From Escherichia coli (GTDB taxonomy: Bacteria > Pseudomonadota > Gammaproteobacteria > Enterobacterales > Enterobacteriaceae): DNA of 64,000 nucleotides. Made by a program: the position numbers and the translations under genes. Location of the stretch: the NCBI RefSeq assembly GCF_050920415.1, contig NZ_CP169309.1; one strand, written 5' to 3'. Under the pieces are notes generated by a model. That model had not been told where the DNA came from, searched no databases, and worked only from the letters and a program-made list of their open reading frames with translations. This document shows, in pieces, positions 2,341-2,514 of this stretch. How positions within the stretch are numbered: the first letter of the stretch is position 1; every line of letters begins with the position of its first letter.

Positions 2341-2390
2341 AAAACGACTCCTCGTAGAGAACAATCTGGATTCAGTAAATTGCGCGAGAA

Positions 2391-2406
2391 GATAAAACGT
2401 TTTATC
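2391..2406. promoter_or_regulatory. Perfect 16-bp palindrome GATAAAACGTTTTATC in the malX/malI divergent promoter region; candidate MalI operator
   Basis: Exact inverted repeat read directly. MalI is a LacI/GalR-type repressor that autoregulates and represses malXY. Confidence 0.6.
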
Positions 2407-2468
2407 AAATTTTAGTGAGGCACAAATCACATTACGCAACGATAATAGCGGGTATAAGATAAATAAAA

Positions 2469-2484
2469 GGTAAAACGTTTTATC
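2469..2484. promoter_or_regulatory. Second copy of the palindrome (GGTAAAACGTTTTATC), 31 bp upstream of malI start; candidate MalI operator
   Basis: Near-identical copy of the 2391-2406 palindrome; core TAAAACGTTTTA is self-complementary. Confidence 0.6.
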
Positions 2485-2514
2485 TGTCACATAATCAGGG
2501 AGTAGGTCATCTGC

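What the first reader, a model, noticed from the sequence alone, without database searches (positions are those of the whole stretch)
2386..2490. Two exact palindromic operators in the malX-malI divergent promoter
GATAAAACGTTTTATC occurs at 2391-2406 and again (GGTAAAACGTTTTATC) at 2469-2484, one near each divergent gene start. This is consistent with MalI repressing both malXY and its own gene.
Basis: partly seen in the sequence, partly recalled or inferred. Interest (0 to 1): 0.25.

Follow-up and report, generated by a model that had tools for sequence, protein, structure and literature searches.

The report
Known MalI operators between malX and malI
The two 16-bp palindromes are the already characterised binding sites of the MalI repressor in the E. 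coli malX-malI control region, so the finding is correct but ordinary.

Summary
GATAAAACGTTTTATC lies at 2391-2406 and is an exact 16-bp palindrome. GGTAAAACGTTTTATC lies at 2469-2484 and matches it at 15 of 16 positions, so it is not itself an exact palindrome. Both sit in the 174-bp gap between divergent malX (- strand, ATG at 2340) and malI (+ strand, ATG at 2515).

The motif is far beyond chance. About 0.29 matches with up to 3 mismatches are expected in the window.

The first sequence is identical to the published "MalI DNA site" (Sellars et al. 2017). [quoted passage not shown] This intergenic region differs from K-12 MG1655 at one base, outside both sites.

In 79 orthologous loci from about 15 enterobacterial genera, both sites are present 78-79 bp apart. 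They are the best-conserved parts of the intergenic region. No copy occurs anywhere else in 464 kb of flanking DNA.

A single conserved CRP-like site (2416-2431) lies between the two operators.

The mechanism is that one MalI dimer per operator blocks RNA polymerase. One operator overlaps the malX -10 and spacer region. The other lies just downstream of the malI transcription start, giving autoregulation.

Verdict: already known, low interest.

The parts
2391..2406 (.). MalI operator of the malX(Y) promoter, GATAAAACGTTTTATC. It is an exact 16-bp palindrome with a central CG.
   Evidence: Searches give the sequence. It is identical to the published MalI DNA site. 14 of 16 columns are invariant in 78 unique orthologous sequences, with mean conservation 0.97. 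It corresponds to NC_000913.3 1699289-1699304.
2469..2484 (.). MalI operator of the malI promoter (autoregulation), GGTAAAACGTTTTATC. It matches the first site at 15 of 16 positions and has a 12-bp perfect palindromic core.
   Evidence: Searches give the sequence. It is present in all 80 orthologous loci, with mean conservation 0.92 and 11 of 16 columns invariant. The G at position 2 is a minority state (12 of 78 sequences). It corresponds to NC_000913.3 1699211-1699226.
2416..2431 (.). CRP-like site TGAGGCACAAATCACA, centred at 2423.5, lying between the two operators and presumably shared by both promoters.
   Evidence: It matches 8 of 10 specified positions of TGTGA-N6-TCACA, against 0.076 such sites expected per 174 bp. 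T2416, G2417, G2419 and TCACA at 2427-2431 are invariant in 78 sequences. The distance from the first operator's centre to this site's centre is 25.0 bp in all 79 loci. malI and malX are listed among known CRP targets recovered by genomic SELEX (PMC3105977).
2389..2394 (-). Probable malX promoter -10 hexamer, TATCTT on the - strand. Four of its bases lie inside the operator.
   Evidence: The - strand sequence is. A2389 and A2390, just outside the operator, are invariant in 78 sequences. The assignment is an inference. It agrees with my recollection of Lloyd et al. 2010 (operator at -24 to -9), which puts the transcription start at 2382.
2453..2460 (+). malI promoter -10 region, TATAAGAT. The hexamer register (TATAAG or TAAGAT) is not resolved here.
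   Evidence: TATAA at 2453-2457 is invariant or nearly so in 78 sequences. It lies 9-16 bp upstream of the second operator. The transcription start near 2467 is inferred from my recollection that the operator is at +3 to +18.
748..2340 (-). malX, PTS maltose/glucose transporter subunit IICB (530 aa), the regulated gene.
   Evidence: NF007509, 1120 bits against a cutoff of 665; RefSeq annotation.
2515..3543 (+). malI, the LacI/GalR-family repressor (342 aa) that binds both operators.
   Evidence: NF007449, 664 bits against a cutoff of 310; RefSeq annotation. It aligns to LacI residues 2-325 of 360.

Best explanation
These are the two operators of the LacI/GalR-family repressor MalI in the E. 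coli malX-malI divergent control region. Each 16-bp dyad binds one MalI dimer: one helix-turn-helix contacts each half-site GATAAAAC, and the hinge helices contact the central CpG. The site at 2391-2406 overlaps the spacer and part of the -10 element of the leftward malX(Y) promoter, so bound MalI excludes RNA polymerase. The site at 2469-2484 lies just downstream of the rightward malI transcription start, so bound MalI blocks initiation or promoter escape and malI is negatively autoregulated. A single CRP site centred at 2423.5 lies between the operators and activates both promoters, and the two operators act independently. Shown here: the sequences, their identity to the published site, the identity of the flanking genes, and the deep conservation of both sites and their spacing. 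Taken from the literature: MalI binding and repression at both promoters. Inferred or recalled: the exact transcription starts, steric occlusion as the mechanism, and the independence of the two sites.
For: Sequence and statistics are. The published MalI DNA site GATAAAACGTTTTATC is identical to 2391-2406, and a 20-copy array of it recruits MalI::mCherry in vivo (PMC5543585). The same paper states that MalI binds a 16-bp target at both promoters to repress transcription. This intergenic region differs from K-12 MG1655 at one base (2423), outside both operators. malI loss-of-function mutations derepress malX 7.4-fold and malY 6.2-fold (PMC12089948). In phylogenetic footprinting, all 79 loci with upstream DNA have divergent malX and both sites at 78-79 bp spacing. 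Conservation is 0.97 and 0.92 for the operators against about 0.52 for neighbouring non-coding DNA. Within 2 mismatches, 159 motif copies lie inside the intergenic regions and none elsewhere in 464 kb. The central CG and dyad symmetry are the usual LacI-family operator design, and MalI carries the N-terminal HTH and hinge motif (VRNRQASAL) aligned to solved LacI-family repressors.
Against: I could not read the primary mapping papers (Lloyd et al. 2008 and 2010, FEMS Microbiol Lett). The operator positions relative to the transcription starts (-24 to -9 for malX, +3 to +18 for malI) and the independence of the two operators therefore rest on my memory of the abstracts. The consensus promoter scan found no sigma-70 promoter in the region. 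That is expected for CRP-dependent promoters without a -35 element, but it gives no positive support. Shimada et al. 2011 describe malI-malXY as regulated by different CRP molecules, which disagrees with a single shared CRP site. That concerns CRP, not the MalI sites.
Confidence: 0.95

Rival explanations
1. The two operators work together. One MalI oligomer bridges both sites and loops the 78 bp between them, as LacI or GalR does, so repression of either promoter needs both sites.
For: Two near-identical sites occur in one short region at a spacing that is almost invariant (78-79 bp) across about 15 genera.
Against: MalI (342 aa) aligns to LacI residues 2-325 of 360 and so lacks the C-terminal tetramerisation helix. 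A spacing of 78-79 bp is about 7.4-7.5 helical turns, which puts the sites on roughly opposite faces (inference). The fixed spacing is explained more simply because each operator is tied to its own promoter and both promoters are tied to one CRP site. As I recall the abstract of Lloyd et al. 2010, each site is not required for repression at the other promoter.
Confidence: 0.03
2. The palindromes are targets of a different LacI-family regulator with a similar core (for example PurR, whose box contains AAACGTTT) rather than MalI.
For: The core AAACGTTT is shared with the PurR box (own knowledge). Many LacI-family operators share the central CG.
Against: The exact 16-mer is the sequence used as the MalI site, and MalI binds it in vivo. 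The sites co-occur with malI in all 79 loci and nowhere else in the flanks. A structure-based energy study found MalI operator sequences well separated from PurR cognate sites (PMC2577325).
Confidence: 0.01
3. The palindromes are chance features of AT-rich promoter DNA, or they act as an RNA hairpin in the malI leader.
For: The region is AT-rich, and the second site would be transcribed if the malI start is near 2467.
Against: About 0.29 matches are expected by chance, and none of 100 shuffles reached the observed count. The sites are near-invariant across genera while the flanks drift. The malI leader RNA folds no better than shuffled sequence (-7.3 kcal/mol, z = 0.14). The first site lies upstream of the malX start and is not transcribed with malX.
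Confidence: 0.01

Closest known systems
MalI operators of the E. coli K-12 malX-malI divergent promoters (Lloyd, Godfrey and Busby 2010, FEMS Microbiol Lett 305:28; Lloyd et al. 2008, 288:250; Sellars et al. 2017, PMC5543585)
   Same: It is the same locus and the same sequences. 2391-2406 is identical to the published 16-bp MalI site. The whole intergenic region differs from MG1655 at one base, outside the sites.
   Different: Nothing of substance differs. The window comes from a non-K-12 E. coli: 56 differences in 3 kb around the locus.
LacI/GalR-family operators in general (lacO, PurR box, galO, CcpA cre)
   Same: They share a 14-18 bp dyad, a central CG contacted by the hinge helices, one dimer per site, the repressor gene next to its target, and autoregulation.
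   Different: MalI has no LacI-type tetramerisation helix. According to the literature as I recall it, the two sites act independently rather than through a loop. The half-site GATAAAAC is specific to MalI.
Divergent promoter pairs sharing one CRP site
   Same: One conserved CRP-like site (2416-2431) lies between two back-to-back promoters. By my reconstruction it is centred about 41.5 bp from one start and 43.5 bp from the other.
   Different: Each promoter also carries its own repressor operator. The transcription starts were not determined here.

Membership tests
MalI operator (E. coli malX-malI region) | Sequence identical or near-identical to the experimentally used MalI site GATAAAACGTTTTATC | tested here: met
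   2391-2406 is identical and 2469-2484 matches 15 of 16 positions. The published site comes from the PMC5543585 supplementary oligos.
MalI operator (E. coli malX-malI region) | Located in the intergenic region between divergent malX and malI | tested here: met
   NCBIfam hits for MalX and MalI, RefSeq annotation, and coordinates mapped to MG1655.
MalI operator (E. coli malX-malI region) | MalI protein binds the site, and mutating the site relieves repression | not testable with these tools
   The literature reports MalI::mCherry foci on a 20-site array and states that MalI binds both promoters. The mutational mapping in Lloyd et al. 2010 could not be read.
LacI/GalR-family operator | Dyad-symmetric site of about 14-18 bp with a central CG | tested here: met
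   The first site has 8 of 8 symmetric pairs and the second 7 of 8. The central CG is invariant at both sites in 78 sequences.
LacI/GalR-family operator | Cognate regulator with an N-terminal HTH, a hinge helix and a periplasmic-binding-protein-like core | tested here: met
   MalI matches the MalI subfamily model and many LacI-family models. It aligns over its full length to solved LacI-family repressors, including the HTH and hinge region.
LacI/GalR-family operator | Site conserved together with the regulator across species | tested here: met
   79 of 79 loci with upstream DNA carry both sites, and no copies occur elsewhere in 464 kb.
Class II CRP-dependent promoter | CRP consensus site centred near -41.5 from the transcription start | tested here: inconclusive
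   The site matches 8 of 10 positions, is conserved, and is centred at 2423.5. The distance to the starts depends on start positions I only recall or infer (2382 and 2467). An alternative N8 register (AGTGA-N8-TCACA, 9 of 10, centre 2422.5) cannot be excluded from sequence alone.
LacI-type operator looping | Repressor with a tetramerisation domain and operators in helical phase | tested here: not met
   MalI ends at about LacI residue 325 of 360. The 78-79 bp spacing is about 7.4-7.5 helical turns.

The most novel reading that the evidence does not exclude
MalI bound at the malX operator might also touch the adjacent CRP dimer, as CytR does with CRP. The gap between the operator and the 22-bp CRP site is 6 bp, and the centre-to-centre distance is exactly 25.0 bp in all 79 loci. 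Part of the repression would then be anti-activation or cooperative binding rather than simple occlusion. The invariant spacing is explained more simply because both elements are locked to the same promoter, so I rate this reading as unlikely.
Probability: 0.04. Interest if true: 0.3.

Novelty: already known. Interest (0 to 1): 0.05.

Why it matters
It matters little as a discovery, because the sites, their regulator and their roles were published in 2008-2010 and have since been reused as a chromosome-tagging tool. The check confirms that the first-stage reader can recognise real operators from sequence alone. The comparative result is a modest addition: it shows that the two-operator, one-CRP-site module is conserved with near-fixed geometry across about 15 enterobacterial genera. 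The only tolerated variation in the operators is a purine/pyrimidine swap at the symmetric positions 2 and 15.

Tried and rejected
- **Primary papers:** I tried to read Lloyd et al. 2010 and 2008 by DOI and PubMed id, Reidl et al. 1989 and Reidl and Boos 1991 by PMC id, and Grainger et al. 2005. None is held.
- **Citing papers:** those I checked cite Lloyd et al. 2008 only for its primer-extension method.
- **Literature searches:** searches for 'malI promoter' / 'malX promoter' and for 'malIp' / 'malXp' returned mostly Streptococcus malX papers or unrelated words.
- **Promoter scan:** the consensus promoter/terminator scan found nothing in 2250-2600. This is uninformative because these promoters depend on CRP and lack a -35 element.
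- **RNA hairpin:** this reading of the second site was rejected (z = 0.14).
- **Second CRP site:** a candidate at 2476-2491 (7 of 10) overlaps the malI operator. Its non-operator half is poorly conserved, so it was not accepted.
- **Looping model:** judged unlikely on protein length and helical phasing.

Full report
**Observation**

The window reads GATAAAACGTTTTATC at 2391-2406 and GGTAAAACGTTTTATC at 2469-2484. A search for the 16-mer with up to 3 mismatches finds these two sites (0 and 1 mismatch) plus two 3-mismatch matches far away. About 0.29 matches are expected from 100 dinucleotide-preserving shuffles, and none of the shuffles reached four. The repeat finder reports an 18-nt direct repeat (2389-2406 / 2467-2484, 94% identical, 78 bp start to start) and a 15-nt perfectly complementary inverted pair.

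The first site is an exact 16-bp palindrome. In the second, G at position 2 does not pair with T at position 15, so it is a 15/16 copy with a perfect 12-bp core.

**Context**

- The ORF at 2515-3543 (+) matches the MalI model NF007449 at 664 bits (cutoff 310).
- The ORF ending at the ATG at 2340 (-) matches PTS maltose IICB, MalX, NF007509, at 1120 bits.
- The next gene is hdhA.
- The 261 bp around the sites occur in 5413 of 5426 complete E. coli genomes, always annotated malI / malX.
- In MG1655 the genes are b1620 and b1621.
- The window is not K-12: it has 56 differences in 3 kb. Its 174-bp intergenic region differs from MG1655 at a single base (2423), outside both sites.
- The sites map to NC_000913.3 1699289-1699304 and 1699211-1699226.

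**Literature**

Sellars et al. [quoted passage not shown] They cite Lloyd et al. 2010 and 2008. Their supplementary oligonucleotides D71689 and D71690 give the "MalI DNA site" as GATAAAACGTTTTATC, identical to 2391-2406. A 20-copy array of it recruits MalI::mCherry into foci in vivo.

An adaptive-evolution study found that malI loss-of-function mutations raise malX transcript 7.4-fold and malY 6.2-fold (PMC12089948). Genomic SELEX lists malI and malX among known CRP targets (PMC3105977).

The two primary FEMS Microbiology Letters papers are not held. From memory of the 2010 abstract, which I could not verify here:

- The malX operator spans -24 to -9.
- The malI operator spans +3 to +18.
- Neither site is needed for repression at the other promoter.
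- One CRP site serves both promoters.

**Independent test by comparative genomics**

A scan of one genome per species returned 80 loci encoding MalI orthologues at 68-99% identity. They come from Escherichia, Citrobacter, Salmonella enterica subsp. arizonae, Enterobacter, Klebsiella, Raoultella, Kluyvera, Leclercia, Lelliottia, Trabulsiella, Pseudocitrobacter and others.

- All 79 loci with enough upstream DNA have malX as the divergent neighbour.
- All 79 carry both 16-mers within 2 mismatches, 78 bp apart in four Escherichia loci plus L077 (an unclassified Enterobacteriaceae genome), and 79 bp apart in the other 74, E. albertii among them.
- Within 2 mismatches there are 159 copies inside these intergenic regions and none elsewhere in 464 kb.
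- In an alignment of 78 unique sequences, mean agreement with the window base is 0.97 for the malX-side site and 0.92 for the malI-side site. It is about 0.52 for the malX leader, for 2435-2452 and for 2485-2514.
- The operator positions that vary appreciably are the symmetric positions 2 and 15 (A/G and T/C). The G at 2470 in this window is one of these tolerated variants and is a minority state (12 of 78).

**Other conserved elements**

- **CRP-like site.** The best match to TGTGA-N6-TCACA is TGAGGCACAAATCACA at 2416-2431. It matches 8 of 10 positions, against 0.076 such sites expected per 174 bp, and is centred at 2423.5. T2416, G2417, G2419 and TCACA at 2427-2431 are invariant. Its centre is 25.0 bp from the first operator's centre in all 79 loci.
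- **malX -10 element.** A2389 and A2390, just outside the first operator, are invariant. On the - strand they complete TATCTT, a plausible malX -10 hexamer that overlaps the operator.
- **malI -10 region.** TATAA at 2453-2457 is near-invariant and marks the malI -10 region.

With the recalled operator positions, the starts would be at 2382 (malX) and 2467 (malI), 85 bp apart. The CRP site would then sit at -41.5 and -43.5. This geometry is self-consistent, but I did not determine the starts.

The consensus promoter scan finds nothing. That fits activator-dependent promoters without a -35 element.

**Mechanism**

MalI is a LacI/GalR-family protein with the N-terminal helix-turn-helix and the hinge motif. 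The dyad with an invariant central CG is the standard design for one dimer per site.

- **At malX.** The site covers the spacer and part of the -10 element, so bound MalI should exclude RNA polymerase.
- **At malI.** The site lies just downstream of the start, so bound MalI should block initiation or escape, giving negative autoregulation.

MalI aligns to LacI residues 2-325 of 360 and so lacks the tetramerisation helix. The 78-79 bp spacing is about 7.4-7.5 helical turns. Both points argue against looping and agree with the reported independence of the two sites.

**Rivals**

- The RNA-hairpin reading is rejected: the malI leader folds at -7.3 kcal/mol, z = 0.14.
- Chance is excluded.
- Cross-recognition by PurR is unlikely.

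**Verdict**

The feature is already known and experimentally characterised. Interest is low.

Noticed in passing
window 23339-23354: GATATCACGTTTTACC is a 3-mismatch match to the MalI site with an intact right half-site (CGTTTTACC, a variant tolerated in orthologues). It lies in the non-coding gap between a 314-aa ORF (22149-23093, -) and a 528-aa ORF (23563-25149, +; probably pntA, from own knowledge of the translation, not tested here). It is probably chance; conservation was not examined.
   Followed up: partly
window 18621-18636: GATAAACAGTTTTTTC is a 3-mismatch match that lacks the central CG. It sits at the junction of two - strand ORFs (17337-18638 and 18642-19421). It is almost certainly chance.
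   Followed up: partly
window 2476-2491: There is a second, weaker CRP-like match, CGTTTTATCTGTCACA (7 of 10), overlapping the malI operator. Its TGTCACA half is poorly conserved. Shimada et al. 2011 (PMC3105977) describe malI-malXY as controlled by different CRP molecules, which disagrees with the single-site model I recall from Lloyd et al. 2008. Conservation supports only the single site at 2416-2431.
   Followed up: partly
window 2467-2468, and the alignment insertion after 2458: The four Escherichia loci with 78-bp spacing and L077 (an unclassified Enterobacteriaceae genome) have one base fewer between the malI -10 region and the malI operator than the other 74 loci, E. albertii among them (78 vs 79 bp operator spacing). 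The window has AA at 2467-2468, immediately upstream of the operator, where most sequences have TT (T in 69 and 60 of 78). The 18-nt direct repeat including AAG is therefore confined to a minority of lineages.
   Followed up: partly
window 53335-53386 (-), 57781-57898 (-), 62954-63128 (+): Rfam gathering-score hits were found for DicF RNA (76.7 bits), the ALIL pseudoknot (114 bits; from own knowledge an IS3-family frameshift element) and the sok antitoxin RNA (108 bits). Together they suggest that the far end of the window enters a defective prophage / IS region.
   Followed up: no
window 2423: This is the only difference from K-12 MG1655 in the 174-bp intergenic region (C here, T in K-12). 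It lies in the spacer of the CRP-like site, at a column that varies freely among genera.
   Followed up: yes
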